Source: Mobula birostris (taxonomy: Eukaryota). From it: a stretch of 64,000 bases of DNA. The stretch is taken from assembly GCF_030028105.1 (NCBI RefSeq), contig NC_092382.1, positions 39,402,246-39,466,245 on the forward strand, in the 5' to 3' direction. Within the stretch, counting starts at the first letter, position 1. The number at the start of each line of letters is the position of its first letter. Under the pieces are notes generated by a model that saw only the letters and a list, made by a program, of their open reading frames with translations, was not told the DNA's origin and did no database searches. A program made the translations under genes and the position numbers. Below are positions 12,552 to 61,775 of the stretch, piece after piece.

Positions 12552-13456
12552 CTAACGCTTAATGAGTTTCACAATCTGGTTCAGTGGGTATTTCACCGCA
12601 TTCCTGAGTTCCTCTCGGAATTTGCTCTGAGTCAGGGCATAAATACACGTGTTGGTGCAGGAACTGAGAATCTGAAGCATTCCTGATGTCTCCTCTGTGA
12701 TGAAACGCGGATCAGAAACAGAATAAAAAACAAAACTCATCGAAATCCGTCTGTAGACATAAAATACCACCTGTGTTCCCCACAACAATATGAAACTACC
12801 AGTTATGCTGAACAGCAAAATGATGGATTTCCGTCGGTTCTCCATCTCGCGGTCCTTGTCATTCTGTACACTCTTTTGTCCCCGGAGACTCCTGCGGGTT
12901 CGACTGGCCACTAAAATCCGTCTGACAGTCAGAATATTGAACAGCAAGATCAGAAAGAATGGAACACAAGGGGCTAAAATGCGGTGCAATATGTCAAATG
13001 CCGCCCATGAGGGAGAGTTTTTGTAGCTCGGTGTATGAACACAATACCAGGGAACACCATCAACTATTACCAAAGGCTGGTATATGAAGCCCGAAGGGAC
13101 ACTCTCCAAACAGGCCAGCACACTCACTGTCCCGATAACCACCGCCGCCGTTCTCTCGGTGCAATATTTTGTTTTCAGCTTCTCACAGCAAATAGCCACA
13201 AATCGATCGACGGTGAAAGCGACAGTCAGCCAGATAGAGTTTGTAGTGCTCGCAAAAATTAACCATGCACCGAGTCTGCACACAGGAGTGATGAACAGGA
13301 AAGACTGGGGAAAATAAATCCAAGCAGTCCACGTCAACAGCGGTTGCGAGATAACGACCAGGAGATCGGCCGCTGCCATTCCCACCAGGTAGCGAGTAAC
13401 ACATTTGGAGAGACCGCACTTTCCACGGGAGAGGATCACAATCGCCACCAGGTTCG
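12552..13456 (-). CDS. Orphan class A GPCR (GPR139/142-like family) copy 1, exon 2
   Basis: 905-nt exon after a TCTCTCTTCCAG acceptor. Encodes the TM1 end (ANLVAIV), MAAADLL, C3.25, FTVDRF, ECL2 WYC, NTCIY and helix 8 SKFREE, ending in TAG. Confidence 0.92.
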
Positions 13457-14824
13457 CTGGAAGAGAGACACAGAAACTCAAGTTCGGAAAATACTAAGCA
13501 GAAACCAGTGCAGTAATTTGAGGGAATTTCGTAGCATTCCACTTCATTATTACACGTGAGCGTGGAAGGGCGACGAAATGGTGCAGATCTGGACGAGGCA
13601 GAGAACGACACAGTAAAATAAAATCAATGTGATCTAAACACGGATTCCTTACTGATGACCGAAATATCAGGTAGGAGCGGAAGCTAAAACTGGGTAAATA
13701 CCCCACCAGAGTGAGTACTGGATGGAACATTTTCCAGCGGCGCCTCCACGTCTTGTGTGAAGCAAATGAGTAAATCCAGACGCTGATAGCAGGGCTCTTC
13801 CATTAGACAATCTTTAAATTGCATGGTGATCCCTGTCAGCGACAGAACAGCCGAAGGGCAAAACAAAATCAGAAAATGCTGGAAACACTCATCGAGACAA
13901 AACAGAACCTGTGTGGAAAAGCATTAAAAGTGTATCTTCTCAAACCTGTTCTCACAGAGGGCCCTGACACGCGTGTTAACTGGATTCTCTTTCCATACAC
14001 GCTGTCTCGGTCTCAATGCCTGCAGAACTGTCCGTGTTTGTTTCCTATTCCTCACTGACTTTACAACAGAACATTGACTGATTCCAACAGATACAGCGCA
14101 GTTTGACACAACCTGATAGACAGACGTGTCGCCTCCCACTGAATCCAACACCGGGAAATCGGGGAGAGGAATTGAACGTCCAGCAGCAAACTAGGTACCG
14201 CAGTCTGATGTCTGTAACGGTGTCAGATGTGAATAGAATAGAGTGCATTTCAGAGTATTTGTAACTGTAAAACAACACATCAGTTAATTTGCTCAGAAAC
14301 AGCTTCATTTTGCTGCTCCTCAGCTGCTTCACATTCAGTCAGAGTACACGCATTTTTTTTTAAAGTCCCCAATCTCCGTGCTACCACATGGAATTCCTCA
14401 CATTAGCTGAAGAGTTACCACAAGTCGATGGTTTGATTATTACACGTCACACAACCGCTCACGTACAAATACAATCAGTCGGTATAATCTCCCTGAGTGT
14501 TTAATCACAATATTTGCAATTGCTGTGCCGCTGCTACCAGACTAACAGCACAGAGACACGAGCATCACAGTATTGAACAGAAACAGCTGAAAGAACGCTG
14601 CTTAACATGTTGACTTCCACAGCTGTTGGCCGATTCGCTAAATTTCTGCAGCGGTGTGTTTTTATATCCAAATCCAAGACCCACAGTCCGAGTGTTTCCA
14701 TCCAATTCCTGAAATGCGGAATACTGGGACTGGATATGTGGCAGTGGAAACCAGCGACAGAAACAATCACATCATTGGAATTAAACTTAAGTTCGCATCA
14801 ACGGCAGCTGACTCTGCGACTTAC

Positions 14825-14894
14825 CGGGAATTCCAAAGGCTGAAATAAATGGGTAGTAAACTTTCCCTATCCGCACGATGACTGGATACTCCAT
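14825..14894 (-). CDS. GPCR copy 1, exon 1 (MEYPVIVRIGKVYYPFISAFGIP)
   Basis: ATG at 14894-14892, 70 nt, donor G|GTAAGT. The phase-1 join restores GIPAN in TM1. Same structure in all four copies. Confidence 0.85.
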
Positions 14895-14976
14895 TTCAGT
14901 GAGAATCTGACATTCGTTGCTCCTGAATTCACAGCTGCGGCAGAAGCTCTGAGCGTATTAATGCAAAATGGCCATG

Positions 14977-14983
14977 ATTTATA
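14977..14983 (-). promoter_or_regulatory. TATA box of GPCR copy 1
   Basis: TATAAAT ~83 nt upstream of the ATG, positionally conserved in all four paralogues. Confidence 0.65.
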
Positions 14984-15082
14984 CAGAGGATCGGTCTCCA
15001 GAGATTCAGTTAAACCCTTGACTAACTTTCCTAGTTGCAATTACTTCAACGGAAACTATGATTTAACATCATTGACTCTGAT

Positions 15083-16203: not shown

Positions 16204-16399
16204 GATGTAAATATTGTTCCGATTGCGGAAATAAATATATCAACATTCTTCGGAATTACCTGAGCACTGATTCATCTGGTGGAATCAACGCCGCAGCTCT
16301 AATGACAAAACTGAACTTTGTCACTAAGCAGCCACACTTACAGATTGAATGTTTTTGTTGTCTAATTGTTCATCTATAAACAGAGTTCACCATCGCCGT

Positions 16400-19170: not shown

Positions 19171-19198
19171 TGCCCCTGCGGTTACCCATTCTGACCAC

Positions 19199-19344
19199 NN
19201 NNNNNNNNNNNNNNNNNNNNNNNNNNNNNNNNNNNNNNNNNNNNNNNNNNNNNNNNNNNNNNNNNNNNNNNNNNNNNNNNNNNNNNNNNNNNNNNNNNNN
19301 NNNNNNNNNNNNNNNNNNNNNNNNNNNNNNNNNNNNNNNNNNNN
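19199..19344. other. Assembly gap
   Basis: Run of N. Confidence 1.

Positions 19345-21174: not shown

Positions 21175-21177
<3 letters not shown>

Positions 21178-21245
<68 letters not shown>
21178..21245. repeat. (CT)n(CA)n microsatellite downstream of GPCR copy 2
   Basis: Directly visible. Positional homologue of the CT tracts at 11210-11960 and 58790-58840. Confidence 0.95.
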
Positions 21246-21247
<2 letters not shown>

Positions 21248-22695: not shown

Positions 22696-23600
22696 CTAAC
22701 GTTCCATGAGTTTCAAAATCCGATTCAGTGGGTATTTCAACGCATTCTTTAGTTCTTCTCGGAATTTGCTCTGAGTCAGGGCATAAATACGCGTATTGGT
22801 GCAGGAACTGAGAACCTGCAGCATTCCCGATGTGTATTCTGTGATGAAACGGGGATCCGTGACGGAGTAATGAACAGCACTCTTTGAAATCCGTTGATAG
22901 ATATAAAATACCACCTGCGTTACCCACAACAGTATGAAACTACCGGTTATGCTGAAGAGCAAAGCGATGGATTTGCGTCGGTTCTCCATCTCCCGGTCCC
23001 TGTCACTCTCTGGGCTCTTTTGTCCCCGGAGCCCCCTGCGGGCTCGACTGGCCGCTAGAATCCGCCTGACAGTCTGGATATTGAGCAGCAAAATCAGAAA
23101 GAATGGGAAACAAGGGGTTAAAATGCGGTGAAACATCGTAAATGCCGCCCATGAGGGGGAGTTCCTGTAGCTCGGTGTATAAACACAATACCAGGGAACA
23201 CCATCAATTATTACCCTAGGCTCCGATACAAACCCCCAGGGGACACTTTCCAAACAGGTCAGCACACTCACTGTCCCAATAACCACAGCCGCCGTTCTCT
23301 CGGTGCAATATTTTGTTTTCAGCTTCTCACAGCAAATAGCCACAAATCGATCGACGGTGAAAGCGACAGTCAGCCAGACAGAGGCCGCCGTGCTCGCAAA
23401 TATCAACCAAGAACGGGGTCTGCACACAGCAGTGATGGACAGGAATGATCGCTGAAAATAAAGCCAAGCAGTCCAGCTCAGTAGCGGATCGAAGATAACG
23501 ACCAGGAGATCAGCCGCTGCCATTCCCACCATGTAGCGAGTAACACATTTGGAAAGACCGCACTTTCCCCGGGACAGGATCACAATCGCCACCAGGTTCG
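22696..23600 (-). CDS. Orphan class A GPCR copy 2, exon 2
   Basis: 905-nt open exon with a TCTCTTCAAG acceptor and MAAADLL, DRF, WYC, NTRIY and SKFREE motifs. Confidence 0.9.
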
Positions 23601-24995
23601 CTTGAAGAGAGACAGAGAACAGCAAGTTGAGAAAATACAGAGCAGAAACGAATCAGGCTGTTTGAAGGGATTCTGTAATATTTCCATATTATTCTTGCAT
23701 TTAGAAGTGGAAGGCTCGAGAGGGGGTGCACAGGAGTCGTGAAAAGTGAGTTTACACAGTAAACTGAAGTCAATATGATCTGAATACGGACTCCATACTG
23801 ATTACCGAAAGGTGAAGTGGGAACGAAAAGCTATAGCTGGGTAACTACCTCCTCGGAGTCAATACTGAGTAAGAATATTTTCTACTAGCTCCATCCCCGT
23901 CACGTGCAGCCGAAATTAATAAATCCGGACGGTGATGGCGGGATTCTTCCATTAGACAATCATTAGCTGCCACGGTGCTCCCTCTCAGTGACAGAACACC
24001 GAAGGACAGAACAAAAACACGAAATGCTGGAAACACTCATCCAGGAGAAACAGAATATGTGGGAAAAAAGCAGTTAAAGTGTCTCCTCTCAGAACTGTTC
24101 TCAAAGATGCCCCTGACACGAGTGTTGACTGGTTTCTCCATCCATACAAGCTGCCTGAGGCTAAGTACTTCTAGCATTCCCCGTGTCCGATTCCTAATCC
24201 AACATTTGCCACTTCACTGACTTTATAACAGAACATTGACAGATTCCGACAGATACAGCGTAATCTGACACAACCACTCAGACAGACGTGACGCCTCCAC
24301 TAAATTCACTGCAGGGAAAGGTGGCAGAGGAATTCTACGGCCAGCGGCAAGCTTGGTGCCGCAGACAGGTGTCTGTAACGGCATCAGATGTGGATGTAAT
24401 GTAATACGTTCAACATTATTGATAATTAGGAAGCAACATGTCGGTTGTGTTAATTGTCTCAGCAACGACTTCATGGTGCTGTCCATCAACTGCTTCACAT
24501 TCAGTCACAGCGCACACATTTATTAAAAGTCCGTAGGTTTTACGCTGCAACGTGGAACTCCTGACATTTGCTAAATTGTTACTGCCAGCTGATGGTTTGA
24601 TCGTTACACCTAACTCAGACAACCGCTCAAATGCAAATGCAGACAATCAATGCGTGTAATCTCAGCGGGCTGTGTAACACAATGCTGCTCAAACCAGGGC
24701 AGCTGCTACAAGACCAAAAACACAGAAAGCCGAACATCAGGTTATTGAACACAACAGCTGGAAGAACCCTGCCTAACCCGTTGAATTCCACAGATGTTAA
24801 CCGATTCGCTGAACTTCTGCAGCAGTGCGTTTTCGATCCAGGTCCCAGAATCCACTCTCACGGTGCTTCCATTTCATTCCTGAAATGCGGAACACCGGGA
24901 CTGGACAGGTGACAGTGGATAGCAGCGACAGAAACAATCACAACATTGGAATTAATCTTCTGTCTCCAGCAAGAGCAGCAGACACTGCGGCTTAC

Positions 24996-25065
24996 CGAGA
25001 ATTCCAAAGGCTGTAATAAAAGGATAGTAAATTTCTCGTATTCGCAGGAAGACTGCATATCCCAT
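24996..25065 (-). CDS. GPCR copy 2, exon 1 (MGYAVFLRIREIYYPFITAFGIL)
   Basis: ATG at 25065-25063, 70 nt, donor G|GTAAGC. Confidence 0.85.
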
Positions 25066-25148: not shown

Positions 25149-25330
25149 ATTTATACATAGGATCGGTCTCCCGAGATATGGTTATACCCCTGACTAACTT
25201 TCTTAGTTACCGTTACTGAAACAAACACTTTAATTCAACACCATTGTCTCTGACGTAAATATTTGGCCGATTCAGCCAAACATATCAAAATTCTTGGGCA
25301 TTAACTCAGCAGTGACTCATCAGGTGGAAA
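25149..25330 (-). promoter_or_regulatory. GPCR copy 2 proximal promoter (TATA, AP-1-like and forkhead-like motifs)
   Basis: TATAAAT at 25149-25155, TGACTAA ~25191, GTAAATA ~25255, TGACTCA 25313-25319 followed by GGTGGAAA. Confidence 0.55.
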
Positions 25331-25973: not shown

Positions 25974-26013
<40 letters not shown>

Positions 26014-28110: not shown

Positions 28111-28119
28111 GTTTTCTGG

Positions 28120-30212: not shown

Positions 30213-32716
30213 ATAGAAACATAGAAAATAGGTGCAGGAGTAGGCCATTCGGCCCTTCGAGCCGGCACCGCCATTTACTATGATCATGGCTGATCATCCG
30301 ACTCAGAACCCTGCACCAGCCTTCCCTCCATACCCCCTGACCCCCGTAGCCACTAGGGCCATATCTAACTCCCTCTTAAATATAGCCAATGAACTGGCCT
30401 CAACTGTTTCCTGTGGCAGAGAATTCCACAGATCCACCACTCTCTGTGTGAAGAAGTTTTTCCTAATCTCAGTCCTAAAAGGCTTCCCCTCTATCCTCAA
30501 ACTGTGACCCCTCGTTCTGGACTTCCCCAACATCGGGAACAATCTTCCTGCACCTAGCCTGTCCAATCCCTTTAGGATCTTATACGTTTCAATCAGATCT
30601 CCCCTCAATCTTCTAAATTCCAACGAGTACAAGCCCAGTTCATCCATTCTTTCTTCATATGAAAGTCCTGCCATCCCAGGAATCAATCTGGTGAACCTTC
30701 TCTGTACTCCCTCTATGGCAAGGATGTCTTTCCTCAGATTAGGGGACCAAAACTGCACACAATACTCCAAGTGTGGTCTCACCAAGGCCTTGTACAACTG
30801 CAGTAGTACCTCCCTGCTCCTGTACTCAAATCCTCTCGCTATAAATGCCAGCATACCATTCGCCTTTTTCACCGCCTGCTGTACCTGTATGCCCACTTTC
30901 AATGACTGGTGTATTATGACACCCAGGTCTCGTTGCACCTCCCCTTTTCCTAATCGGCCACCATTCAGATAATAACCTGTTTTCCTATTTTTGCCACCAA
31001 AGTGGATAACTTCACATTTATCCACATTAAATTGCATCTGCCATGAATTTGCCCACTCACCCAACCTATCCAAGTCACCCTGCATCCTCTTAGCATCCTC
31101 CTCACAGCTAACACTGCCACCCAGCTTCGTGTCATCTGCAAACTTGGAGATGCTGCATTTAATTCCCTCATCCAAGTCATTAATATATATTGTAAACAAC
31201 TGGGGTCCCAGCACTGAGCCTTGCGGTACCCCACTAGTCACCGCCTGCCATTCTGAAAAGGTCCCGTTTATTCCCACTTTTTGCTTCCTGTCTGCTAACT
31301 AACTCTCCACCCACACCAATACCTTACCCCCAATACCGTGTGCTTTAAGTTTGCACACTAATCTCCTGTGTGGGACCTTGTCAAAAGCCTTCTGAAAATC
31401 CAGATATACCACATCCACTGGTTCTCCCCTATCCACTCTACTAGTTACATCCTCAAAAAATTCTATGAGATTCGTCAGACATGATTTTCCTTTCACAAAT
31501 CCATGCTGACTTTGTCCGATCATTTCACCATTTTCCAAATGTGCTGTTATCACATCCTTGATAACTGACTCCAGCAGTTTCCCCACCACCGACGTTAGGC
31601 TAACCGGTCTATAATTCCCCGGTTTCTCTCTCCCTCCTTTTTTAAAAAGTGGAGTTACATTAGCCACTCTCCAATCCTCAGGAACTAGTCCAGAATCTAA
31701 CGAGTTTTGAAAAATTATCACTAATGCATCCACTATTTCTTAGGCTACTTCCTTAAGCACCCTGGGATGCAGACCATCTGGCCCTGGGGATTTATCTGCC
31801 TTCAATCTCTTCAATTTACCTAACACCACTTCCCTACTAACATGTATTTCGCTCAGTTCCTCCATCTCACTGGACCCTCTGTCCCCTACTATTTCTGGAA
31901 GATTATTTATGTCCTCCTTAGTGAAGACAGAACCAAAGTAATTATTCAATTGGTCTGCCATGTCCTTGTTCCCCATAATCAATTCACCTGTTTCTGTCTG
32001 CAGGGGACCTACATTTGTCTTTACCAGTCTTTTCCTTTTCACATATCTATAAAAGCTTTTACAGTCCGTTTTTATGTTGCCTGCCAGTTTTCTCTCATAA
32101 TCTTTTTTTCCCCTTCCTAATTAAGCCCTTTGTCCTACTCTGCTGAACTCTGAATTTCTCCCAGTCCTCAGGTGAGCCACTTTCTCTGGCTAATTTGTAT
32201 GCTGCTTCTTTGGAATTGATACTATCCCTAATTTCTCTTGTCAGCCACGGGTGCACTACCTTCCTTGATTTATTCTTTTGCCAAACAGGGATGAACATTT
32301 GTTGCAGTTCATCCATGCAACCTTTAAATGCTTGCCATTGCATATCCACCCTCAATCCTTTAAGTGTCATTTGCCAGTCTATCTTAGCTAATTCACGTCT
32401 CATACCTTCAAAGTTACCCCTCTTTAAGTTCAGAACCTTTGTTTCTGAATTAACTATGTCACTCTCCATCTTAATGAAGAATTCTACCATATTATGGTCA
32501 CTCTTACCCAAGGGGCCTCTCACGACAAGATTGCTAATTAACCCTTCCTCATTGCTCAAAACCCAGTCCAGAATAGCCTGCTCTCTAGTCGGTTCCTCGA
32601 CATGTTGGTTCAAAAAACCATCCCGCATACATTCCAAGAAATCCTCTTCCTCAGCACCTTTACCAATTTGGTTCACCCAATCTACATGTAGATTGAAGTC
32701 ACCCATTATAACTGCT
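30213..32716 (-). mobile_element. Young 5'-truncated CR1 ORF2 (endonuclease C-half, RT, 3' tail)
   Basis: Near-continuous ORF2: MGDFN, KSPGPDG, YRPVSLTS, DFQKAFD, GVPQGSVLGP, KFADDT. It has one frameshift (~32100) and two in-frame stops (31740, 31299), with a (TTTCTATG)-type tail at ~30213-30230. Confidence 0.95.
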
Positions 32717-33021
32717 GTGAGAGGCGCACCGCTTCCAGGGTCTCCTTACTTCGAGTGTCGTGTGTGTCCTGCCTTAGCGAACCTGTCCCTTTTTATCCCC
32801 CTGCTGGGGTATCGCCTGTCCATCACTTCAAACAGTTCAGGGTTCAAAGGGGGAGCCGCTTTAGACAGCTCTCTCTCCCGTCCCTTCATTAACATCTCCA
32901 GATGCTGCTTCATTGTTCCTTATCTCTCCTTCACCTGAGGACAGGTGGCAGACCAACTGCTGATGCCACTGATGCTAACCCAGGCCAGCAAACATCTTAA
33001 TTTATGTGTATTCTCGTCACA
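32716..33021 (-). mobile_element. LTR-like fragment
   Basis: 306 bp bounded by TGTGA...TCACA with an internal GATAAAAGG. No TSD is visible. Confidence 0.35.
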
Positions 33022-36310: not shown

Positions 36311-36374
36311 TAGATAACTGAATGAATCCCTTCCCACATTCACAGCAGGTGAACGGCCTCTCCTCAGTGTGAAC

Positions 36375-37649
36375 TTAATGATGCACATTTGGTTGATTTG
36401 GTTGAGAGAATCTCTTCCCAATGTCTGAGCAGGTGATCGGCCTCTCTCCAGTGTGATTTCTCTGGTGTCTCAGTAGATGAGATGACTGAATGAATGCTTT
36501 CCCGCAGACTGAGCAGGTGAAAGGCTTTTCACCAGTGTGAACTCGATGATGTAGCTTCAGATTAAATGACCTAATGAATCCCTTCCCACAGAATGAGCAG
36601 GCGAACGGCCTCTCCCCTGTGTGAACTCGCTGATGTACCATCAGTTGAGATGACTGAGTGAATCCCTTACCACAGTCTGAGCAGGTGAATGGCCTCTCTC
36701 CGGTGTGAACTCGTTGATGCAGCTTCAGATTAAATGACCTAATAAATCCCTTCCTACAGACTGAGCAGGTGAACGGCCTCTCCCCTGTGTGAACTCGCTG
36801 ATGTACCTTCAGTTGAGATGATGAAGTGAATCCCTTCCCACAGTCTGAGCAGGTGAAAGGCTTTTCTCCAGTGTGAACTCGTTGATATAACTTCAGTTGA
36901 GATGACCAAGTGAATCCTTTCGCACAGTCTGAGCAGATGAACGGCCTCTCCCCAGTGTGAACTGACTGGTGTGCTTGTAGGCCAGATAACTGTGCAAATC
37001 CCTTCCCACAGTCTGGGCAGGAGAATGGCCTCTCTCCAGTGTGAACTCGCTGATGTACCTTCAGTTGAGATGATTCAGCAAATCCCTTCCCACAGTCTGA
37101 GCAGGTGAATGGCGTCTCCCCTGTGTGAACTCGCTGATGTACCTTCAGTTGAGATGACCGAGTGAATCCCTTCCCACAGTCTGAGCAGGTGAACGACCTG
37201 TCCCCAGTGTGAACTGACTGGTGTCTCAGTAACTGAGATGACAAAGTGAATCCCTTCCCACAGTCTGAGCAGGTGAACGGCCTGTCCCCAGTGTGAACTG
37301 ACTGGTGTGCTTGTAGGCTAGCTAACTGTGTGAATCCCTTCCCACACAATGAGCAGGAGAATGGCCTCTCTCCAGTGTGAATTCGCTGATGTAACTTCAG
37401 TTTGGTTGAGCAAGTGAATCCCTTCCCACAGTCTGAGCAGGTGAATAGCCTCTCTCCGGTGTGAACTGACTGGTGTCTCAGTAACTGAGATGACTGAGTG
37501 AATCCCTTCCCACAGTCTGAGCAGGTGAATGGCCTCTCTCCGGTGTGAACTGACTAGTGTCTCAGTAACTGAGATGACGAAGTGAATCCCTTCCCACAGT
37601 CTGAGCAGGTGAATGGCCTCTGTCCAGTGTGAACGCGCTGGTGAGCCAT
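36375..37649 (-). pseudogene. Tandem C2H2 zinc-finger gene (~14 fingers, TGERPF linkers) with a premature stop
   Basis: ATG at 37649 (MAHQRVHTG…) is in frame with ORF 36375-37349. There is a CAG>TAG at 37556-37554 (codon 32). A splice acceptor TTTTTACAG lies at ~38034, and upstream decayed fingers contain stops. Confidence 0.75.
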
Positions 37650-38379
37650 TAGGTCAGATGACCAAGTGAATCCTTCACCACAAATTCAGCAGACAACCAG
37701 CCTCTACCCACTGTGAACTGACTGGTGTGTCCACAGGTGGGAAGACTGACTGAATCCCTTCTCACACACAGAACAGGTGAATGGTCTTGTCCCAGAGTGA
37801 ACTTGCTGATTGAATCTATTCCCAATGTCTGAACAGATGAATGAGTCCCCCGCTGTGTCAAATGACAGGCATGCCAGTCGGTCAGATGATTGATTGAATC
37901 CCTCCGCACAGTCTGAGCAGGAAGGATGATCGAGTGAATCCCTTGCTCCACTTCTTGAATATCTGGACAGAGACAGCAAAACTGGTGTGTTTTGTTCGAG
38001 GTTCCCGTAGACAAATTTCTTGTCATTTTTAACCTGTAAAAAAGATTTACAAAATCCATCAATGTTTGTAGGACAATATATCAGATGCGATCACTTGAGT
38101 TGCCAAGGTCTGATCTGGCATCACATTGTTACAGTGAAGTTTAACCCAAGTTGGAGAGAGATATCATCTTATAACTGGGCACAGTGCTGATTTCTGGAAT
38201 GGCCATCAAATTCTCTGATGCTGTTACTGTCTCTATAAGAATGGGGCATTTCTGCCATCTCCAATCTGTGACCTGGCTCAGTTTGACTCTCTCCATTGGT
38301 ATTATTCCCTGTTCCCACTGAGCTGCATGGGTTCCTGGCCACACAGTAACTGAAACACTCTCACACGAACAGCCAGCAG

Positions 38380-51342: not shown

Positions 51343-51892
51343 AATCCACGGCCTCCTCTACTGTAAAGATGAAGCCACACTCAGGTTGGAGGAACAACAC
51401 CTTATATTCCGTCTGGGTAGCCTACAACCTGATGGCATGAATATTGACTTCTCTAACTTCCGCTAATGCCCCACCTCCCCCTCGTACCCCATCTGTTACT
51501 TATTTTTATACACACATTCTTTCTCTCACTCTCCCTTTTCTCCCTCTGTCCCTCTGAATATACCCCTTGCCCATCCTTTGGGTCCCCCCCCTTGTCTTTC
51601 TTCCCAGACTTCCTGTCCCATGATCCTCTCGTATCCCTTTTGCCTATCACCTGTCCAGCTCTTGGCTCCATCTCTCCCCCTCCTGTCTTCTCCTATCATT
51701 TTGGATCTCTCCCTCCCCCTCCAACTTTCAAATCCCTTACTCACTCTTCCTTCAGTTAGTCCTGACGAAGGGTCTCGGCCTGAAACGTCGACTGCACCTC
51801 TTACTAGAGATGCTGCCTGGCCTGCTGCGTTCACCAGCAACTTTGATGTGTGTTGCTTGAATTTCCAGCATCTGCAGAATTCCTGTTGCTTG
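51343..51892 (+). mobile_element. Young 5'-truncated Penelope-like element (GIY-YIG C-terminus + terminal repeat)
   Basis: Encodes HGLLYCKDEATLRLEEQHLIFRLGSLQPDGMNIDFSNFR*. The TSD is CGAGAGRAAATC (51331-51342, 51893-51904). Absent from the copy-4 flank. Confidence 0.85.
51758..51793 (+). ncRNA. Minimal type I hammerhead ribozyme motif (PLE-associated)
   Basis: AGTC-CTGACGA-A-GGGTCTCGGCCT-GAAA-CGTC-GACT gives stem I AGTC/GACT, a CUGANGA core, a stem II hairpin, GAAA, palindromic ACGU and a GUC cleavage triplet. Confidence 0.75.
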
Positions 51893-52218
51893 CGAGAGGA
51901 AATCTGCTGACGCTCGAAATAGAAAACAACACCCATTATCATAATTTACTCTTTTCTATAGCTGCTGTCTGGTCTGCTGAGTTCCATCATATTTTGTGTG
52001 TGTTGCCTTAGAGTAACAAACCAGCTGTTTACAGCTGAGTCTGACGGCATCACTGGCTTCAGCATCCCAGTGAAATCCACTTTGCACCTTACCTCACGTC
52101 CCGATTACATTGAATGTTGTGGTGAATCATTTGCCCCTGCTTCCCGGTTCTAACAGAACTGCCTGATCACGGGGTATACTTTCGTCAGTACTAACCACTC
52201 TTGCTCCCGTCATAACCC

Positions 52219-55200
52219 CAGGCAGCGAATTCCGCCGTATGCAACAAATACATGATTAGCAGTATTCTTCGACCTCCGTCCTCGTTAGGGGCCAGTAAAA
52301 CCGGTCCTTGGGCAATCCTTAGGTCTTTTCCACCCCCAGATGTCCAGAGCCATCATGGAGGGACTACAAGACAACCTTCCGATTCTTGTCAGGCAGGACC
52401 AGCTGCCAAAACCGAAGTCGGTCCGGGAGTGACGTTACCCGTTATAACATTCTGTTCTTCAAACTCAACTGTAGTCATTCGCTCAATAACAGAGACACTG
52501 AAACGTCTGTTCACATCTCCCTCTTCCACGGTGTGCCAGACAGGGCCAGTGCCCGGGTCATCTCGCTGAGCAGCGGCCACTTCCCCAGGGTTTAACTCCG
52601 GCAGCTGCGTGGTCTTCAGAGCAGTCAGATCACTGTAAACTAGGGGCACGGCGTCACTGGACGCCCCGAATGAGACCACTGCTCGATCTGGCCTCTCCTT
52701 CTCCTCAGCCTGCATAGTGACAGCAAACTGGCACATCTCCTTCACCCCGGATGCAGGAAGACGCTCCCACTCCTCGTACTTCTTCAGTTCCTCATGGCCC
52801 CGACGGGACAGAGCATCTGTATCGACATTCCGGCTCCCGGGGCGGTACTTCAGGCTGAAATCATATACAGACAAGGCTGCCAGCCACCGATGGTCTGTTT
52901 ATCCACCACCGCCCATTTCAACGCCAGGAACTCCAACTTTTGAGTGGGATAGTTCCTCTCCAAAGGTGACAAACTCTGGCTGACAAGTGCCACAGGGCTC
53001 AGGCCAGCGCCCTGATCCTGATATAGAACGGCCCCTAACACCTTTTGACTGGCATCAGTGTGTAGCACGTAGGGCAATCGAGGGTCTGCAAAAGCCAGCA
53101 CCAGCGCCTGAGTCAGCATCTCCTTTTGTGACTGGAAAGCCGCTTCACATTTGTCATCCCATCTCTGTCCGAAGGGCTCTGACGGGTTCAAATATTCTCC
53201 CATCTTCCGTCCTTCCCCCACCCCCCTCTGTCCCAGGGGAGGGTAGCCACGCAGAAGCTGGTTCAGGGGATAACTCGCCTGGGCGTAGCTCTTCACGAAT
53301 CTCCGATAGTACCCACAGAACCCTAGGCACGAGCGCAGAGCACTCACGGTCTGGGGCCTTGGCCAGGTGGTCACTGCTTCCATCCTAGCCGGGCGGGTGC
53401 TACACCAATCCGCGAGACAATGTGTCCAACATAGCTAACAGATCTGGCATTTGTCCAGGGAAAGCTTCAACCCTTCCTGCTTCAGCCGGTTGAGCACCTT
53501 CATTACTCTCGCTTCGTGTTCTTCCAAGATTGATCCGAATACTGTGAGTCAACCAAATATACTGACATTTCGAGCAGGTTCCTATCCCCCACTGTCTTCT
53601 CCATGACCCTCTAGTAGGTGCCAGGGGCCCTCGATATGCCCTGGGGCATCCTTTCGAACTGGTAAAATCCCAGAGGGCACATGAAGGCCGTCTTATCCTT
53701 ATCGGCCTCACTCATTGGGATCTGGTAATATCCACTTCTCAAATCCAACACGCCAAACCACTCCACCCCACTCAGATAGGCCAGCGCGTCTTCGACCCGG
53801 GGAAATGTGTACTGATCAGGGACCGTGCACTTGTTCAGTGTTCTATAGTCCACACACATACGAACCTTCCCATTCTTCTTCCGGGCCACTACGATAGGAG
53901 ATACATAAGGGCTTCAGGACTGTGTAATAATCCCAGCCTCCTTCAACTTGCCCAAATGCTGCCGCACGTCTTCCACATCTGCAGGAGCCAGTCGCCACGA
54001 TCTTTCACTAAACGGAGTATCCTCAGTTACCCGTATGGTGTGGTGAATGCTCTTGGATCAACCCACATCAAACTCGTCAGTGGAAAAAACACCTGTCAGC
54101 GTCAACATCTTCTGCACCAGCCTCCGCTTCCAACCTTCCTGGACAAGTGATGCCTCAAAGTTAAAAGCTTCAGCGGTCAACTTAGGCCCTTTTCTCAACA
54201 GCAATCCTCCAACTGGCCTCACGGTGGCGCGATGCATCACCGTCACGGGGAACAAATGTTCCAGAGGCATCTCTCGCTTAAAGGTGACATCCCGTTTCGT
54301 AGTGTTCCTGACGAACACCACCAGCCTGCGTGCCTGCACCACCGAGAGCTTCTGCAACTCGGGTCGCATCAGCACCCCAGCCGGGAATCTTAACTCCTCC
54401 TTGAGATCTTCACCCTCAGGCACTCCCGGAAATCTAGGGATCCCCTTCATTCTCGCTACTTCACCTGGCCGTACCACCCTGGGCTTCGACTGGGCACACC
54501 ACACAGTGCATCGTTCACACACCGCGTCCAGCCCAGGGCGACGCAACACTTCCTCAAAAGCAGCTCGGAACACTGGGTCTCCAAAAAGTCTTCACCTGCC
54601 TTCTCCTTACAGGCTCCCAGGAGTCTCCGCACAATAGGGTTGTTGATCCCCACCAGAACTAACGCACCCCCAGTCTCACCGGGGTCTGAGCAAACCAGCC
54701 GCAGGGTGTCATGAGCCTCAGACACCCCCAACTCAGCTTCCAGGAACTCCAGTTACACGGACAAATAACCATCGTACGGGTAATCACCAACATTGATACC
54801 CCACATTTCCAGTGCACTGAAAGGAGTCAAGGGTAAATGCGCCACATACTGATCGTAGAACGACTGGTACAGTAATGTGACCTGAGACCCGGTGTCAAGT
54901 ATGCCTTTTGCATCTATCACCTCTATCCGGATCGGGGTCCCACCAATCCTTCTGGGATAGGGTCTTTTCCTGTCGAGGGTCCCGCCGCACATTGCTGGGA
55001 ACGTATTTTTCCAGAGACTCCCGTCCGTTCCCTCACTGAGTCTCTTCTAACTTTCCCGACACCCCCTTCCTGCTGGGACACCTGTGGGCTCTCCCTCCGA
55101 GGGGCTCCCTGCCGTTCACATTCCCGCCTGAAGTGCCCCTGTTCCCCGCAGTTATAGCATACGCCTCGTGTCGCGAGACGCCGGATTCCGCTTGGCCTCA

Positions 55201-57016
55201 GTACCGTCCGTCCCTTCAGAGAGGGGCCTTCTCCACTAGTTCCCTCCTGCGACCCCTTTATATGTCTCCCGGGTGGAGCTGGCCCCGGTCATTTCACCAC
55301 TAGGAGCTACTAATGGGGACTGCACAGTAGTAACGGAGCCCTCTTCCGCTCCCAGTGCGTCCTCCTCCTCCCTTACCTCTCTGAGCATCTGAACAAAAGT
55401 TGGAGGCGGGGAAAGGACACGCTCTACGGGATTGCCAGTGGCTCGTAGCGATCACATCATGTCTCTGTGCGCCCCTGGGTACCTGGTCGACCCTTATCCG
55501 ATCCATCTCATTCCTTTGAATGACCACCCCCGCCCCCGGGGCCTCAAGCAATTTAACCTTCGCTCCAGCCGGAAAGGATACTCAGAAAACTTTTCCCCTT
55601 TCTCCTGACGCAGATTCTGAATCCCCCCTAAAAGCTCCACCGTGCCCCCCGTTAGCCCAAAACCCTCCTCTAATGCTTCCAGACACTGCATCCAAGAAGC
55701 CAAAGGCTGGTTAACTTCGACGCCTTTTACCACCTCAGCTGCCGCCCCTCTCAAACTTTCTCCCAATCTGTGTCGCTTCTCCTCCTCAGGACACTGCCAC
55801 TCGCCGAGCAGCTGAGAGGTATGTCCTATCCAGGTCTCATCATCATCTTCCCCTTCAGAGATGTGGGTCCTGGGGAAATTCTTAACTGGTGACGCGGACC
55901 CACCGCCCTGTTCACCGGGGAGTTAATAGCTGAGGCCAACTCAGAGCCTTCCCCCTTCCGTGGGGAATGAGAACTAATTACATTCTCCAAATCTGACCAC
56001 TCCCTTCCTTCATCCTTCAGAAACGATTGGACCCGCTCGCTAAAATCCCCGCCCCGGCTTCGGGCAACTCCTCTGGTGTCCCATCTAACCCTTCCCCCGT
56101 GACAGTGTGCACGTCCCATGGCCCCGCCTCACCCACGTCACCGACACACGGCTGCAGTCCCACCTCCTTGACGTCATCACCCGTCTGTACCAGCACAAAC
56201 GCTGAATCCCCTGTTTAACCAACCTTTCTGCTTACAATCTCAACCTTACCGATAGCTCTGACCGTACTCAAACATCGAATTAACTCATCGTCCGGCGTAC
56301 GCATATCCACCCCACTTAATAAGCAGGCATGATTAACCGGTACTTCCTCGATCTCACACCAAAGTTCAATCTTATCCGAGTCTATCTGACAGAATTCAAA
56401 CCGCAGACGAGCAACTGGCAATGTAACGCCTCCGACCCCAACTGAGTCCCGTTGCCTAGGGTGAATAGCCGTCGAATTCGCCAAAAAGTGCAAATGCTTT
56501 ATTGCAGATACGGTGTGAGGCACCCAATAATCAGCCACGACACAAATATCAAACAATATACAAAGTGCCAGTAAATAAATATACTTTACAGTAATTTTTG
56601 GTGTTGCGCTTGTAGAAACAACTAAAAGAAAAGGCCCACGTAGGTAAACTTAACAGTCTTGTGCACATAATATTTTAATACGTTGCAGCTCACGCCTGCG
56701 ATTCCATCCACAACTTCCTTCCGAAACTCCGGCCACCATCCAAACGGCCGAGGCCCGGTATCCGCCGCCCTGGGACCGCTGTCCGTTCCCCGCACGTCCG
56801 TCCTCTCCGCTCGCCTCCCGAGAAACCCCGCGAGTCCCAGCTCAACACATACATACAAGATAGCATAACATAGCTTCCATTGGTTAGTTCCTCCGTTATC
56901 TATAACTCTAACCTACACATTTCAGCTACGGAGAACATGACTTCATAGTTAGCAGTACAAAGAAGTCATTTAGTTATAAAACTTCAGAGAAGACGTTTTA
57001 TAATAAGCGGTTAACA
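52219..57016 (-). mobile_element. Gypsy/Ty3 LTR retrotransposon with PNMA-like gag, degraded and 3'-truncated
   Basis: Gag ELWCEIEEVPVNHACLLSG plus a CCHC knuckle (~55120-55160), protease ILDTGSQVT, RT RMCVDYRTLN/LDLRSGYYQ, RNase H HTDAS/LEFLALKWA and IN HHCC (LHDGSGHLG…FYWP…C). 5' LTR ~56422-57016 (TG…CA). Confidence 0.92.
56422..57016 (-). repeat. Gypsy 5' LTR
   Basis: Minus strand begins TGTTAAC and ends GTTACA just upstream of the gag start. Confidence 0.6.
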
Positions 57017-57959
57017 GTTAAGTGTCCAGTTAATATTACTCAGAACCCTATACTCATCTACGAATTTAATTAATTCGTGAAGCACATTGAAGTTTCCAGG
57101 AATTTGATTATTGACAGCGCTGACCATATCTGAGAGAACGCAATAAACTGAGTTCTCTGCTACATGTACCGGATGTTTGCTCGCCATGATTGGCACAATG
57201 ATATTACAACTTGTTGCACATCAAGTAACAATTTGGGTATCAAATTAAGCAGTCTTGTGTAATATTAGAAATCTTACACTAATGAACAGAGTACTGGCTA
57301 CATGTGATGATAGTAAAGGAAGGTTTTATGTCGTATGGTATTTTATTTTCCCCAACATGGAAATAATTGAGCCTACAATTTGAGAAGAGTTTGCATTGCG
57401 GGCAAATATCATGAAGAGACTTGTATTCTAAACTAACCCACCAACAGACGTTATTTTTATGAATGTTACCAACTAAGAAATAGATTCACGCAGAAGTCAT
57501 AAAAGGAGAAAAACACCAGGCTTCTCCAGAAGTGATATGAAGACATAGACTTCTGGATTATGCTTTCAGTGCTTATGAGAATTGTTTATTGTCTGTTCTG
57601 CTGATAACTAGTGAGTTCTTCTTACGATGTCCTCTGGTGGAATAGTCATATCATAGCCACAGCAAAGTCGAGTTACACCAACGGGTGGAAAGAGCGTCCT
57701 TTGGAAAGTTACAAAGTTGTAATATGGAGCATGACTTCAGAATTGGGGATAGGAGGACGAGACTTGCCTCATCCAGCAGGAAACAGAGTAATGAAGGGGG
57801 AGCTTCAAGTTCCAACGCAATTAGACACTAATACAGCCGATATTTCTGGGGCAAGGTTCTTCCAGAGTTGCCACCGATTACATTTTTGATTGCAGATTGG
57901 GCACAAGTTGTGGAGGAGGCAAAGGAGATAATCCACCAGTGGACTAAGCACAGTAACAT

Positions 57960-58460
57960 AATTAATTTTTAGTGATTATTAATAAGCAAATATCAAGAAC
58001 ATGATTTGTGGAGTCCTCTCGTGTGAGTTCATTGTTGGGGTAAGTTAAATTACCCGCTCTACTGCAGGAGCCTGATCATTTACGAGTAGAGGTATTGCTG
58101 AACCTGTTGCTATGGGACCTGACGCTCCTGTCACTCCTTCCGGACAGCAGCATGGAGAAGTGAGCATCACCTGGGTGACGGGCGTCCCTGGTGATGAATG
58201 CTGCTTTCCGGTGATTTCACTCCTTGTCGATGTTTTCAGCGGCGGGGAGGGATGTACATCCGATGGACTGGCTGCATCCACAACTTCTCGTTGTTCATTC
58301 TACTCAAGGAACTTGGTGTTTCCATACCAGACAATGAAGCAACGAGGCAGGGTACTCTCCACTGCACTACTCTAGAATTTGGCCTAAGATTCAGATGACA
58401 TGCTAAATCTTCACAGACTGACGTAGTACAGACGTTGAACATCGCTGTCTTTCCAGAATT
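57960..58460 (-). mobile_element. Old Rex1/Babar-type 3' remnant
   Basis: Decayed ESTLPRCFIVWYG-like and HPGDAHF motifs. Confidence 0.45.
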
Positions 58461-58784
58461 ACGGCGAACTAATTCGTCTCCTCTGAATCTCCACACTAAG
58501 GATCCCAGTTAATTTGAGGGATATTATAGTTACAGATGAAAACATACTCCAAGATCAGGCCTTTTTGTCAGAACCGGGAAGCAGGGGTAACAGATTCACC
58601 CCAAGCTTCAATTTAATCGTGGTGTGTTTACAATGTTTACAATGTATAAAATGCCTCGGGATTCCCGTTAATACTCTTCACTCTAGTCATTTCCTCGTAA
58701 CTATTCACAATTTGACTTGCCTGTTGATTCCTCATTTTCCTCCGAGACCCAGTACAATTTCAGCATCCCAAACTTTACATTGTC

Positions 58785-58789
<5 letters not shown>

Positions 58790-58833
<44 letters not shown>

Positions 58834-58842
58834 GTCTCTCAC
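58790..58842. repeat. (CT)n microsatellite
   Basis: Directly visible. Confidence 0.95.
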
Positions 58843-59417
58843 TCTGCAGTAAAGACAATGACATTTTGTTGTCATATGTAAAACTGTTACAATTGTACTA
58901 CTGGAAGATAGTTCATGACGTCAGAGAGAAAGAGAACCTACAGGTTGAGAAAGAGGAGAAAACGAGGGTGAATGAAAGGACAGGTTATGACGGGATCAGG
59001 AGTGGTTGTTACCGACGAAAGTATACCACATGATCAGGCAGTTGTGTTAGAACCGGGAAACAGGGGCAAATGATTCGCCACAACATTCAATATAATCGGG
59101 GCGTGAGGTAAGGTGGAAGGTGGAATTCACTGGGACGCCGAAGCCAGTGATGCCGTCGGAAGCAGCTGTAAACAGCTGGTTTGTTACTCTAAGGCAACAC
59201 ACACAAAATATGATGGAACTCAGCAGACCAGACAGCAATTATAGAAAAGAGTAAATTATGATAATGTGTGTTGTTCTCTATTTCCAGCATCAGCAGATTT
59301 TCTCACGTTTTAGTTCTATAAGTCTGTTCATCACATTGTTTCCATTTATACACAAGTGAGTTTACATAATAGGGATCATGAAGGCAGCTTGATTGTAATA
59401 ATTTACAGTGTTTATTT

Positions 59418-60322
59418 CTAACGTTTAGTGAGTTTCAAAATCCGATTCAATGGGTATTTCAGCATATTTTTGATTTCTTCTCGGAATTTGCTCTGGGTCA
59501 GGGCGTAAATAAAAGTGTTGGAGCAGGAACTGAGAATCTGCAGCATTCCCGATATTTCTTCAGTGAGGTAGCGGGGATCTGTTACAGAATAATAAACAAA
59601 ACTCATTGAAATCCGTTGATAGATATAAAATGCCTGCCGTGTTATCCAGCACAGTATGAAACTACCGGTTATGCTGAAGAGCAAAACGATGGATTTGCGT
59701 CGGTTCTCCATCTCCCGGTCCTTGTCATTCTCTCCATTCCTTCGTCCCCGGAGCCCCCGGCGGGCTCGGTTGGCTGCGAGAATCTTCCTAACGGTTCGAA
59801 TATTGAGCAGCAAAATCAGAAAGAGTGGAACACAGGGGGTTAAAATGCGGTGAAACATTGCAAACGCCGCCCATGAGGGAGAACTTCTGAAGCTCCATGT
59901 ATAAACACAATACCAGGGAACACCATCCATTATTACTAAGGGCTCGTATACAAAGCCCCAGGGAACACACTCCAAACAGGCCAGCACACTCACTGTCCCG
60001 ATAACCACAGCGGCCGTCCTCTCGGTGCAATATTTTGTTTTCAGCTTCTCGCAGCAAATAGCCACAAATCGATCGAAGGTGAAAGCGACAGTCAGCCAGA
60101 CTGAGGTTGCAGTGCTCGCAAAAATTAACCATGCACCGAGTCTGCACACAGGCGTGATGAACAGGAATGATCGGGGAAAATAAATCCAAGCAGTCCACGT
60201 CAGCAGCGGATAGGAGATAACCAGCAAGAGATCGGCGGCGGCCATTCCCACCATGTAACGATTGACGCATTTGGACAGAACGCACTTTCCCCGGGACACA
60301 ATCACAATCGCCAGCAGGTTCG
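59418..60322 (-). CDS. Orphan class A GPCR copy 4, exon 2
   Basis: 905-nt open exon with a CTCTCTTTCAG acceptor and DRF, WYC and NTFIY motifs. Closest to copy 3. Confidence 0.92.
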
Positions 60323-61705
60323 CTGAAAGAGAGACGGGGAACAGCAACTTGAAGAAAAAAACACTGACTGGGGCCAATGCAGCACTGTGAGGGGATTCTC
60401 TAATAACTCAATGATATTGTTGAGCCTAGTCGTGGAAGGGTCCAAAGAGGGCGCAGATCTGGACGAGAGAGAGAAGGATTTTACACTGTAAAATAAAATC
60501 AATATAATTTGTATACGGATTTATTACTGATGAGCGAAATGTGCAGTGGCAGGGGAAAGTGAAAACTTGGTAATTCCCTCCTCAGAGTCCATACTGGATG
60601 GAACATTTTCTAACGGTGCCTCCGCGTTTCGTGTGCATAAACTGAATAAATCCGCACCCTGACTGCGGGATACTTCCGTGAGACAATCATCAACTTCCAT
60701 GGCGCTCCCTGTCAGGACAACCGAAGGACGGTACAAAAAAAAACAGGAAATGCGGAAACACGCAATCAGACAAAACAGAATATGTGGGATAAACTGTTAA
60801 ATTGTATCTCCTCATAAACGTTCTCAGAGGGGCCCCTGAAAAACCTCAAAAAATTTCTCTTTCCATTCAAGCTGATTGGGGTTTAGTGTTTAAAGTATTT
60901 CCCAGTCTCTTTCTTAATCCAGCATTTGCCACCTCAGTGACTTTACAATAGAATATTGACTATTACCACAATTACAACGCAATCTGACACAACGTGAGAG
61001 AGAGATATGAATATGACACCTCCCATTGAAACCATCACAGGGAAGCAGGGGAGAGGAATTCATCGTCCAGTAGCCAACTCCGTGTCGCTTTTAGATAACT
61101 GGATCGGTGTCAGATGCAGATATAATATAATACATTTCATAGTGTTGATAACTATGAAGCCACACGTCTGTTGTGATATTTGGCTCAACAACGGCTTCAT
61201 TGAGTTGTCCATCAACTGCTTCACAGTCAGTCACAGCGCACACATTTATTAAAAATCCACAAGTTTCAAGCTACAACGTGGAACTCCTCACATTTACTAA
61301 AGTGTTACTACCAGTGGAAGCTTTGATTGTTGCACCTCACACGACCGCTGACATACAAATGCAGACAGTCAATTGGCATAAACACCGGGAGGAGTGTAAA
61401 CACAATATTTGCGATTTCAGTGCAGCCACTACCGGACCAAAAGCACAGAAACCCGAACATCACACTGTTGAACCGAAGCAGCTGAGAGAACTCTGCCTGA
61501 TCCATGAATTCCAGCATCGCTGAATTCCAGCATCGGTTTGTTTTTAGATCTAGATCCCCAAATACACATTCCCGGTGTTCATTGCATTCCTGAAATGTGG
61601 AAGACTGGGAAAAGACATGCGGCAGTGGAATCCAGCGACAGAAACAATCACAACATTGGAATTCAACTTGAGGTCCCACCTACAGAGGCTGAAACGGCGG
61701 CTTAC

Positions 61706-61775
61706 CGGGAATTCCAACGGCTGAAATAAAAGGATAGTAAACTTCCCCTATTCTCAAGATGACTGGATAACCCAT
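61706..61775 (-). CDS. GPCR copy 4, exon 1 (MGYPVILRIGEVYYPFISAVGIP)
   Basis: ATG at 61775-61773, donor G|GTAAGC. Confidence 0.87.

What the first reader, a model, noticed from the sequence alone, without database searches (positions are those of the whole stretch)
12552..61775. Cluster of four intact orphan GPCR paralogues resembling an uncharacterised, diversifying receptor repertoire
Seen: four 324-aa 7TM genes with identical architecture (70-nt exon 1, 1.37-1.40-kb phase-1 intron, 905-nt exon 2), all open despite a heavily decayed surrounding. ICL2 (DRFVAICCEKLKTKYCTERTAAVVIGTV) is invariant. Predicted pocket-facing sites vary: TM2 Q/D/Y/Y, top of TM3 LGA/PRS/ICA/LGA, post-ECL2-Cys HTP/YTP/YRS/YTW, TM5 D/T/S/A, TM6 QVV/QVV/RQA/RQA and TM7 EET/EYT/EEI/EEI. 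The N-terminus is only ~10 residues with no N-glycosylation sequon. Established: GPR139/GPR142 are single-copy aromatic amino-acid/peptide sensors in mammals, and short N-termini, clustering and pocket variability typify chemosensory or immune-sensing families. Inference: this is a lineage-expanded receptor family with shared signalling and diversified ligand specificity.
Basis: partly seen in the sequence, partly recalled or inferred. Interest (0 to 1): 0.8.

Follow-up and report, generated by a model that had tools for sequence, protein, structure and literature searches.

The report
Huge overlooked receptor family in rays
The four receptor genes in this window belong to a family of well over a thousand related genes in this ray's genome, which look like a large set of chemical sensors in an animal group thought to have only a few dozen smell receptors.

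Summary
In detail: four open, two-exon, 324-aa class A GPCR genes. They are a small sample of a far larger family. A family motif occurs 1,644 times in G000 (control 0). All 20 sampled matches were family members, and 114 of 160 sampled loci have an intact exon 2, so roughly 1,200 copies have an intact main exon; many are near-identical.

The family is not GPR139 or GPR142. Both exist separately as single genes, as do two further conserved paralogues, and all share the same TM1 intron. The family is a long-branched clade whose named close relatives are all sharks and rays.

The intracellular face is constrained (omega 0.38) and the extracellular half varies more (0.67). Positive selection is significant, but only site 3.29 survives a rate-variation control. 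Promoters carry a TATA box and an EBF/OE-like element, as mouse odorant-receptor promoters do, but a strict blind test was not significant.

Best reading: a birth-and-death chemosensory repertoire, most likely olfactory (about 50%). Expression and ligands are unshown. No paper describing the family was found.

The parts
14825..14894 (-). W1 exon 1 (70 nt; short N-terminus and first half of TM1)
   Evidence: same 70-nt exon in most paralogues
13457..14824 (-). W1 phase-1 GT-AG intron (1368 nt), just before Asn1.50
12552..13456 (-). W1 exon 2 (905 nt; rest of 7TM, helix 8, stop)
14978..15004 (-). W1 promoter: EBF/OE-like palindrome (14995-15004) and TATA box (14978-14983)
   Evidence: function inferred
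24996..25065 (-). W2 exon 1
23601..24995 (-). W2 intron (1395 nt)
22696..23600 (-). W2 exon 2
25150..25261 (-). W2 promoter: TATA (25150-25155), EBF/OE-like (25167-25176), forkhead/Sox-like sites (25221-25227, 25255-25261)
   Evidence: function inferred
48856..48925 (+). W3 exon 1
48926..50315 (+). W3 intron (1390 nt)
50316..51220 (+). W3 exon 2; AlphaFold2 model gives a class A 7TM fold with an ECL2 beta-hairpin and helix 8
48671..48774 (+). W3 promoter: forkhead/Sox-like (48671-48677, 48705-48711), homeodomain-like (48726-48731), EBF/OE-like (48748-48757), TATA (48769-48774)
   Evidence: function inferred
61706..61775 (-). W4 exon 1
60323..61705 (-). W4 intron (1383 nt)
59418..60322 (-). W4 exon 2
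61857..61960 (-). W4 promoter: TATA (61857-61862), EBF/OE-like (61874-61883), homeodomain-like (61900-61905), forkhead/Sox-like (61920-61926, 61954-61960)
   Evidence: function inferred
48455..62174 (.). W3/W4 inverted duplicate (48455-51342 against 59296-62174, 94%). The whole block recurs twice elsewhere on C17 at about 98-99% identity.

Best explanation
The four genes are working members of a very large elasmobranch family of class A GPCRs. It comes from the branch that also gave GPR139, GPR142 and two unnamed conserved paralogues, and it evolves by tandem and segmental duplication and loss. Shown: gene structure, family size, separate identity, purifying selection on the cytoplasmic face, greater variation on the extracellular face, and a shared promoter layout. 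Inferred: each receptor binds a different water-soluble ligand (amino-acid derivatives or small peptides) in the usual TM3-TM5-TM6-TM7 pocket under a disulphide-tied ECL2 hairpin, and all signal through one common G-protein pathway. Most likely they are expressed in chemosensory neurons of the olfactory organ, one or a few per cell, under EBF/OE plus homeodomain control, and feed the Go/TRPC2 machinery reported for catshark olfactory neurons. The confidence given is for this chemosensory-neuron reading; the family description itself is about 0.95.
For: Size: 1,644 motif sites, control 0; 20 of 20 sampled are family, 14 of 20 intact; 100 of 140 intact; 64 of 128 intact copies still distinct at 90% identity. 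Spread: 1,895 and 1,927 homologues; all named rows of both top-120 lists are sharks or rays. Selection on 46 paralogues: omega 0.38 intracellular against 0.67 extracellular, ICL2 0.29; M2a vs M1a LRT 66.7; M8 vs M8a 68.7, and 15 of 16 candidate sites lie in the extracellular 139 of 294 codons, p 1e-4; still LRT 65.7 on 208 CpG-poor codons and 19.6 with codon-rate variation. Across 41 divergent members, entropy is 2.0 bits outside and 1.1 inside; pocket positions 3.29, 3.32, 3.36, 5.42, 6.51, 7.39 vary freely while D2.50, DR3.50, N7.49, Y7.53 are fixed. Promoters: the top de novo motif in 28 mutually unalignable promoters is EBF/OE-like, LL 64 against 33-39 in 4 shuffles; 6 of 7 and 10 of 14 carry it at -150..-70 (not blind); 9 of 15 in the blind set. 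Mouse OR promoters carry O/E-like and homeodomain sites (PMC3247230, PMC5608512, passages). Cartilaginous fishes have only 20-62 known olfactory receptor genes despite many olfactory neurons (PMC10869828). Catshark neurons form a near-continuous layer, yet the tested receptor probes label only 0.45-5.9 cells per mm (PMC10116579); that this leaves most neurons unassigned is my inference.
Against: No expression, tissue or ligand data support it. The pre-set blind promoter test on the 8 strictly unalignable new promoters was not significant for the EBF-like site (3 of 8; 43 of 300 shuffles) or the homeodomain site (3 of 8; 31 of 300). A strict O/E pattern matched only 0-1 of 25 promoters. EBF factors also act in B cells and other tissues (recalled). 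Synonymous rates are also higher in the extracellular half (2.9 against 2.2), no partition has omega above 1 (31 pocket positions 0.73), only site 63 (3.29) survives rate variation, and the TM6-TM7 third shows no signal on its own tree (LRT 1.8). Many copies are 98-99% identical segmental duplicates, which may partly be assembly duplicates. Published catshark olfactory work explains the nose by V2Rs and does not mention these genes. GPR139 is a brain receptor and GPR142 a gut/pancreas receptor, not olfactory (PMC7318219).
Confidence: 0.5

Rival explanations
1. Immune or barrier-tissue sensing repertoire: leukocyte or B-cell receptors for microbial or damage peptides, like the expanded FPR and MRGPR families (recalled).
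For: Clustering, birth-and-death and extracellular variation fit equally. EBF-like sites fit B-lineage expression (recalled). Foldseek's nearest structures are peptide and chemoattractant receptors such as GPR15, APJ and CXCR2, though with about 20% identity and near-equal scores.
Against: No enrichment of ISRE, NF-kB, ETS or RUNX motifs over introns in 25 promoters. About a thousand members is the scale of OR and V2R repertoires, beyond known immune GPCR families (recalled).
Confidence: 0.17
2. Chemosensing outside the nose: taste buds, solitary chemosensory cells of skin and gill, or enteroendocrine nutrient sensing, extending the GPR142 role.
For: Kinship with the Trp/Phe sensors; W1-W4 keep F3.33, H5.42 and W6.48, and W3/W4 keep R6.51 (residues from PMC5430874). 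A forkhead/Sox-like element is the second de novo motif and passed the blind test (3 of 8; 0 of 300 shuffles). GPR142 acts in gut and pancreas.
Against: Only 7 of 41 divergent members keep the F/H/W trio. Nutrient or taste sensing rarely uses more than tens to a few hundred receptors.
Confidence: 0.15
3. Largely non-adaptive copy-number drift: a small functional set multiplied by riding on segmental duplications in repeat- and zinc-finger-rich regions; most copies are redundant or silent.
For: The W3/W4 block recurs at 98-99% identity. About 29% of sampled loci are broken. dS rises with dN outside and the selection signal shrinks with rate variation. W3/W4 exon and intron are equally diverged.
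Against: Divergent subfamilies (down to 38% identity) sit on many contigs and have counterparts in several shark orders. Omega is 0.54 overall. Exons are more conserved than introns between older paralogues (0.85-0.88 against 0.77). Promoter elements persist in unalignable flanks.
Confidence: 0.15
4. They are simply copies of GPR139 or GPR142 with the same Trp/Phe pharmacology, as the automatic annotation implies.
For: Databases name nearly all homologues 'probable G-protein coupled receptor 139'. The intron position is shared. The AU test does not reject a clade of family plus GPR139/142 (p 0.19).
Against: True orthologues are separate single hits (L141 E 6e-161 to the solved GPR139), against E 1e-9 for W3. 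Identity is 22-24%. N7.39 is replaced, and the Cys3.25-ECL2 pair is present in the family but lacking at 3.25 in GPR139/142.
Confidence: 0.03

Closest known systems
GPR139 and GPR142 (class A orphans activated by L-Trp and L-Phe)
   Same: Two-exon gene with a phase-1 intron immediately before Asn1.50; Asn at 5.58, no Pro at 7.50, Met at 7.40; one branch against 20 other receptors (99/96); W1-W4 keep F3.33, H5.42, W6.48.
   Different: Single-copy and highly conserved against more than a thousand fast-evolving copies; 22-24% identity; the family has Cys3.25 and the ECL2 Cys, a longer ECL2 and ICL3, mostly lacks Pro6.50, and its pocket is hypervariable.
Two unnamed conserved paralogues also annotated 'probable GPR139' (likeA: L143, coelacanth P0240; likeB: L144, reedfish P0272)
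   Same: Same intron, Cys pair, similar ICL1, ICL3-TM6 and helix-8 motifs; group with the family at 97/82; likeA has the highest median identity, 28.5%.
   Different: One copy each in G000. likeA is found in sharks, fishes, amphibians, turtles and squamates. The family sits on a long stem (1.43 changes per site), and its exact sister is unresolved (84/53).
Vertebrate chemoreceptor repertoires (OR, TAAR, V1R/ORA, V2R, T2R)
   Same: Hundreds to over a thousand clustered genes, birth-and-death turnover, very short N-terminus, variable pocket, O/E-like promoter element.
   Different: Different ancestry within class A; coding region split by an intron; the only Pfam hit at E 0.001 is 7tm_1; expression in sensory neurons untested.

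Membership tests
Class A (rhodopsin-like) GPCR | 7TM fold, 7tm_1 domain, N1.50, D2.50, DRx3.50, W6.48, NxxxY7.53, C3.25-ECL2 Cys | tested here: met
GPR139 orthologue | High identity and one clade with GPR139 | tested here: not met
   24% median identity; the true orthologue is L141; separate clades
GPR142 orthologue | One clade with GPR142 | tested here: not met
   L142 groups with named GPR142 proteins at 100/96; family 22%
GPR139/GPR142 wider branch | Phase-1 intron directly before Asn1.50 | tested here: met
   not checked in outgroup receptors
GPR139/GPR142 wider branch | One branch against invertebrate FMRFamide-receptor-like and other hits | tested here: met
   99/96; the outgroup was limited to 20 of the 150 hits, so other receptor families were not sampled
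GPR139/GPR142 wider branch | Family closer to likeA/likeB than to GPR139/142 | tested here: inconclusive
   97/82 and 99/96 in the tree, but AU p 0.19 for the alternative
GPR139-type Trp/Phe sensor | Pocket F3.33, H5.42 (5x43), W6.48, N7.39 (7x38), R6.51 (PMC5430874) | tested here: not met
   W1-W4 keep 3 of 5 (W3/W4 4 of 5), N is replaced by G; 7 of 41 divergent members keep F/H/W
GPR139-type Trp/Phe sensor | Activation by L-Trp or L-Phe | not testable with these tools
   needs a heterologous assay
Known olfactory receptor families (OR, TAAR, V1R, V2R) | Homology to those families | tested here: not met
   only 7tm_1 hit at E 0.001; no olfactory receptor among the 60 sequence hits or the ranks shown to 50 for fold hits; these families were not put in the tree
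Chemoreceptor-type repertoire (works-like claim) | Large clustered family with birth-and-death turnover | tested here: met
Chemoreceptor-type repertoire (works-like claim) | Positive selection on ligand-facing sites | tested here: inconclusive
   significant in all whole-gene tests, but one site left under rate variation and none in the last third
Chemoreceptor-type repertoire (works-like claim) | O/E-like plus homeodomain promoter sites | tested here: inconclusive
   top de novo motif; blind strict set 3 of 8, not significant
Chemoreceptor-type repertoire (works-like claim) | Sparse expression in sensory neurons and response to external chemicals | not testable with these tools
   no tissue-labelled RNA available

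The most novel reading that the evidence does not exclude
This is the main, so far unrecognised olfactory receptor family of sharks and rays: a fifth large vertebrate olfactory GPCR family, recruited independently from the GPR139/142 branch, expressed one receptor per neuron under EBF/homeodomain control, and outnumbering the known shark olfactory genes some twenty-fold.
Probability: 0.4. Interest if true: 0.95.

Novelty: new variant of a known kind. Interest (0 to 1): 0.8.

Why it matters
Cartilaginous fishes are reported to have the smallest olfactory repertoire of any vertebrate group (mean 44 genes; PMC10869828) and a relative paucity of GPCRs (PMC8455134), despite large noses. A family of about a thousand intact-looking receptors hidden under the automatic label 'probable GPR139' contradicts the second statement and could overturn the first. 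One cross-reacting in situ probe on olfactory epithelium would test it. Even if the family is immune or gut-expressed, it would be among the largest vertebrate GPCR expansions without a published description that I could find. It also exposes two conserved, unnamed relatives of the drug targets GPR139 and GPR142.

Tried and rejected
RNA: no RNA holder listed on record. Laying contigs of 4 of the 23 listed runs (guessed RNA) on W3 showed no exon 1-exon 2 joint and partial intron cover; this says nothing either way.

First pattern search used the wrong codon and missed the window's genes, but found 71 other members.

Sequence and fold searches against solved structures do not single out a relative. 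The ESM Atlas returned only 'probable GPR139' and FMRFamide-receptor-like clusters.

Promoter motifs: strict O/E, octamer, ISRE, NF-kB, ETS, E-box and RUNX motifs were not enriched in 25 promoters. The wider forkhead motif was strong in 13 related promoters (20 against 8.4) but marginal in 12 new ones (14 against 8.5; 10 of 200 shuffles).

Weak tblastn hits at 17.9 kb and 31.5 kb were LINE read-through of one query, not receptor remnants.

Literature: nine searches for the family found no description: GPR139+cartilaginous+expansion, 'G-protein coupled receptor 139'+shark, GPR139+elasmobranch, GPR139/142 evolution, shark+GPCR+tandem+orphan, GPR139-like, 'coupled receptor 139'+taxa, novel chemoreceptor family (81), elasmobranch tandem duplication. 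Subscription journals are not covered. The white shark genome paper was not held. The catshark sensory-organ paper's supplement, which holds tissue expression tables and could bear on expression, could not be read.

Not established: presence in chimaeras, lampreys or bony vertebrates (only the top 120 rows of about 1,900 were shown). No complex prediction was run, since no partner is known.
Full report
1. Observation. The window holds four two-exon genes, W1-W4, with a 70-nt exon 1, a phase-1 GT-AG intron of 1368-1395 nt and a 905-nt exon 2, each giving 324 residues. All hit Pfam 7tm_1. An AlphaFold2 model of W3 exon 2 (pLDDT 77.8, pTM 0.73; TM1 only partly covered) shows the helical bundle, an ECL2 hairpin and helix 8. 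W3 and W4 are a 94% inverted duplicate. No other copy lies in the window. The genome is that of a ray: the best named homologues are from Mobula and Hemitrygon, at 77-85% identity.

2. Scale. A protein search of G000 scored 150 of 4,113 candidates, all at least 83% identical over 121 residues. Exact patterns over the TM3 motif gave 71, 530 and, with a broader pattern, 1,644 sites; each control was 0. I fetched 140 loci (96 of the first 100 listed, 44 of the 71): 100 of 140 have an acceptor and an open exon 2 through helix 8. Twenty more, picked across clusters from the first 100 listed, were all family members, 14 intact. The broad pattern catches 120 of the 140. So there are about 1,600-1,900 loci and roughly 1,150-1,350 intact main exons. 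These are extrapolations from non-random samples, and an intact exon 2 is not proof of an intact gene: exon 1 was not found within the fetched flank for some loci. Redundancy is high. The W3/W4 block recurs twice on C17 at 98-99%, and 128 intact copies reduce to 96, 80, 64 and 41 at 98, 95, 90 and 80% identity. Some near-identical copies may be assembly duplicates. Two protein searches found 1,895 and 1,927 homologues; all named rows of the 120 shown in each are sharks or rays. The rows not shown leave chimaeras and bony vertebrates open.

3. Identity. A short recalled motif found exactly two sites. L141 is GPR139 (E 6e-161 to the solved receptor). L142 is GPR142 (it groups with named GPR142 proteins). 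W3 matches the solved GPR139 at only E 1e-9, no better than neuromedin B, AT2 or GPR15 receptors, and Foldseek returns generic peptide receptors. A search of 1.84 billion representatives with L141 exposed a coelacanth protein closer to the family than to GPR139. It defines a conserved paralogue, likeA, found in sharks, fishes, amphibians, turtles and squamates, with no mammal or bird among the named rows. G000 has one likeA (L143) and a second single gene, likeB (L144), which pairs with a reedfish protein. All four single-copy genes have the family's intron, directly before Asn1.50. In a 68-row tree the 30 family rows form one clade (100/100) on a long stem. It joins likeA and likeB (97/82) and an unnamed protein, P0149 (99/96), with GPR139 plus GPR142 as sister. 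The AU test does not reject placing the family with GPR139/142 instead (p 0.19). The safe statement is: same wider branch, not the same genes.

4. Selection. I used the 65-member subfamily containing W1-W4, cut to 46 sequences under 99% nucleotide identity, over 294 codons. My codon code reproduces IQ-TREE's M0 likelihood. Omega is 0.54 overall; M2a beats M1a (LRT 66.7; 6% of sites at omega 2.9) and M8 beats M8a (68.7). Omega is 0.38 inside, 0.67 outside and 0.29 around ICL2. Against this: no partition exceeds 1, dS is also higher outside, and allowing codon-rate variation cuts the LRT to 19.6 with only 3.29 left. CpG-poor codons keep the signal (65.7). Thirds analysed on their own trees give 42.8, 22.6 and 1.8. 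Posteriors are naive empirical Bayes with fixed relative branch lengths, and generic numbers were counted from motifs. Across 41 divergent members, the signalling motifs are fixed and the pocket is hypervariable. W1-W4 keep three of the residues needed for Trp/Phe activation of GPR139 (PMC5430874; abstract and passages), but only 7 of 41 members do.

5. Promoters. All four genes have a TATA box 87-90 nt before the ATG and an EBF/OE-like palindrome about 20 nt further up. A strict O/E pattern first found almost nothing. I then saw a looser element by eye and counted it in 6 of 7 and 10 of 14 mutually unalignable promoters (not blind). With motif and window fixed beforehand, 20 new loci were fetched; 15 had a findable exon 1 and 8 were unalignable to anything seen. 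In those 8 the EBF-like site (3 of 8) and homeodomain site (3 of 8) were not significant, while TATA (6 of 8) and a forkhead/Sox-like element (3 of 8) were. In all 15 the EBF-like site was in 9 (0 of 300 shuffles). Unsupervised motif finding on 28 unalignable promoters, which include those already seen, returned the EBF-like motif first, the forkhead/Sox-like second and TATA third. The EBF consensus and factor names are recalled. O/E-like and homeodomain sites mark most mouse OR promoters (PMC3247230, abstract and passages; PMC5608512, passages). This is a hint towards olfactory neurons, no more.

6. Mechanism. Shown: a very large, mostly intact, purifying-selected family with a fixed cytoplasmic face and variable extracellular face, growing by tandem and block duplication. 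Inferred: distinct ligands per receptor and a common G-protein output. For the tissue I put about 0.5 on chemosensory neurons, mainly olfactory. Cartilaginous fishes have 20-62 known olfactory genes yet many neurons (PMC10869828, passages). In catshark, neurons form a near-continuous Go- and TRPC2-positive layer while tested probes label 0.45-5.9 cells per mm (PMC10116579, passages and one section part); the gap is my reading and could reflect probe sensitivity or coverage. Rivals are immune sensing (0.17), gut, taste or skin sensing (0.15), drift (0.15) and plain GPR139 copies (0.03). Expression data obtained here were uninformative.

7. Novelty. The genes are in public databases under automatic names. 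Nine literature searches found no description. Word searches within five papers found no mention of the family: PMC12294341, PMC8455134, which speaks of a paucity of GPCRs in cartilaginous fishes, PMC11979771 (supplement unreadable), bioRxiv 2022.10.17.512540 and PMC10116579; I saw passages only. PMC7318219 was read as passages for GPR139/142 biology. Subscription journals were not searchable. Verdict: a real, large and apparently undescribed receptor family; function inferred, not shown. Interest 0.8.

Noticed in passing
L143 (G000:C18:55205991-55206920) and L144 (G000:C3:115344286-115345161): Two conserved single-copy relatives of GPR139/GPR142, both auto-named 'probable GPR139'. likeA occurs from sharks to reptiles, with no mammal or bird among the named hits. 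Two database entries label likeA as a TMEM183A isoform, suggesting it lies in or beside that gene.
   Followed up: partly
window 36312-37810 (-): C2H2 zinc-finger array of about 18 units with a 392-residue open stretch (36378-37553) and in-frame stops on both sides; probably a decaying or truncated ZNF gene among the receptor cluster.
   Followed up: partly
window 43535-63418 against L175-L178: The block holding W3, the intervening LTR-retrotransposon remnant and W4 is copied at C17 about 43.4 Mb and 57.3 Mb at 98-99.7% identity: recent segmental duplications, or assembly duplicates.
   Followed up: partly
window 44410-48226 and 62320-64000: Three copies of a 1.3-1.7 kb repeat (88-93% alike) flank the W3/W4 block, two tandem and one inverted; they may have mediated the inversion.
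   Followed up: no
window about 52400-55900 (-) and 30306-32745 (-): Broken retroelements: an RT/RNase H-type remnant between W3 and W4 and a LINE reverse-transcriptase remnant.
   Followed up: no
window exon 2 codons 75-100 of W1-W4: The TM3-ICL2 stretch is almost identical at synonymous positions too, though dS over 46 paralogues is only modestly low there (1.7); possible gene conversion.
   Followed up: partly
L008 and L206 upstream regions: The promoter region contains what looks like a degenerate second copy of exon 1 about 200 nt upstream of the ATG.
   Followed up: no
L001 (G000:C5): A family member whose frame runs about 80 residues past the usual stop into LINE sequence.
   Followed up: no
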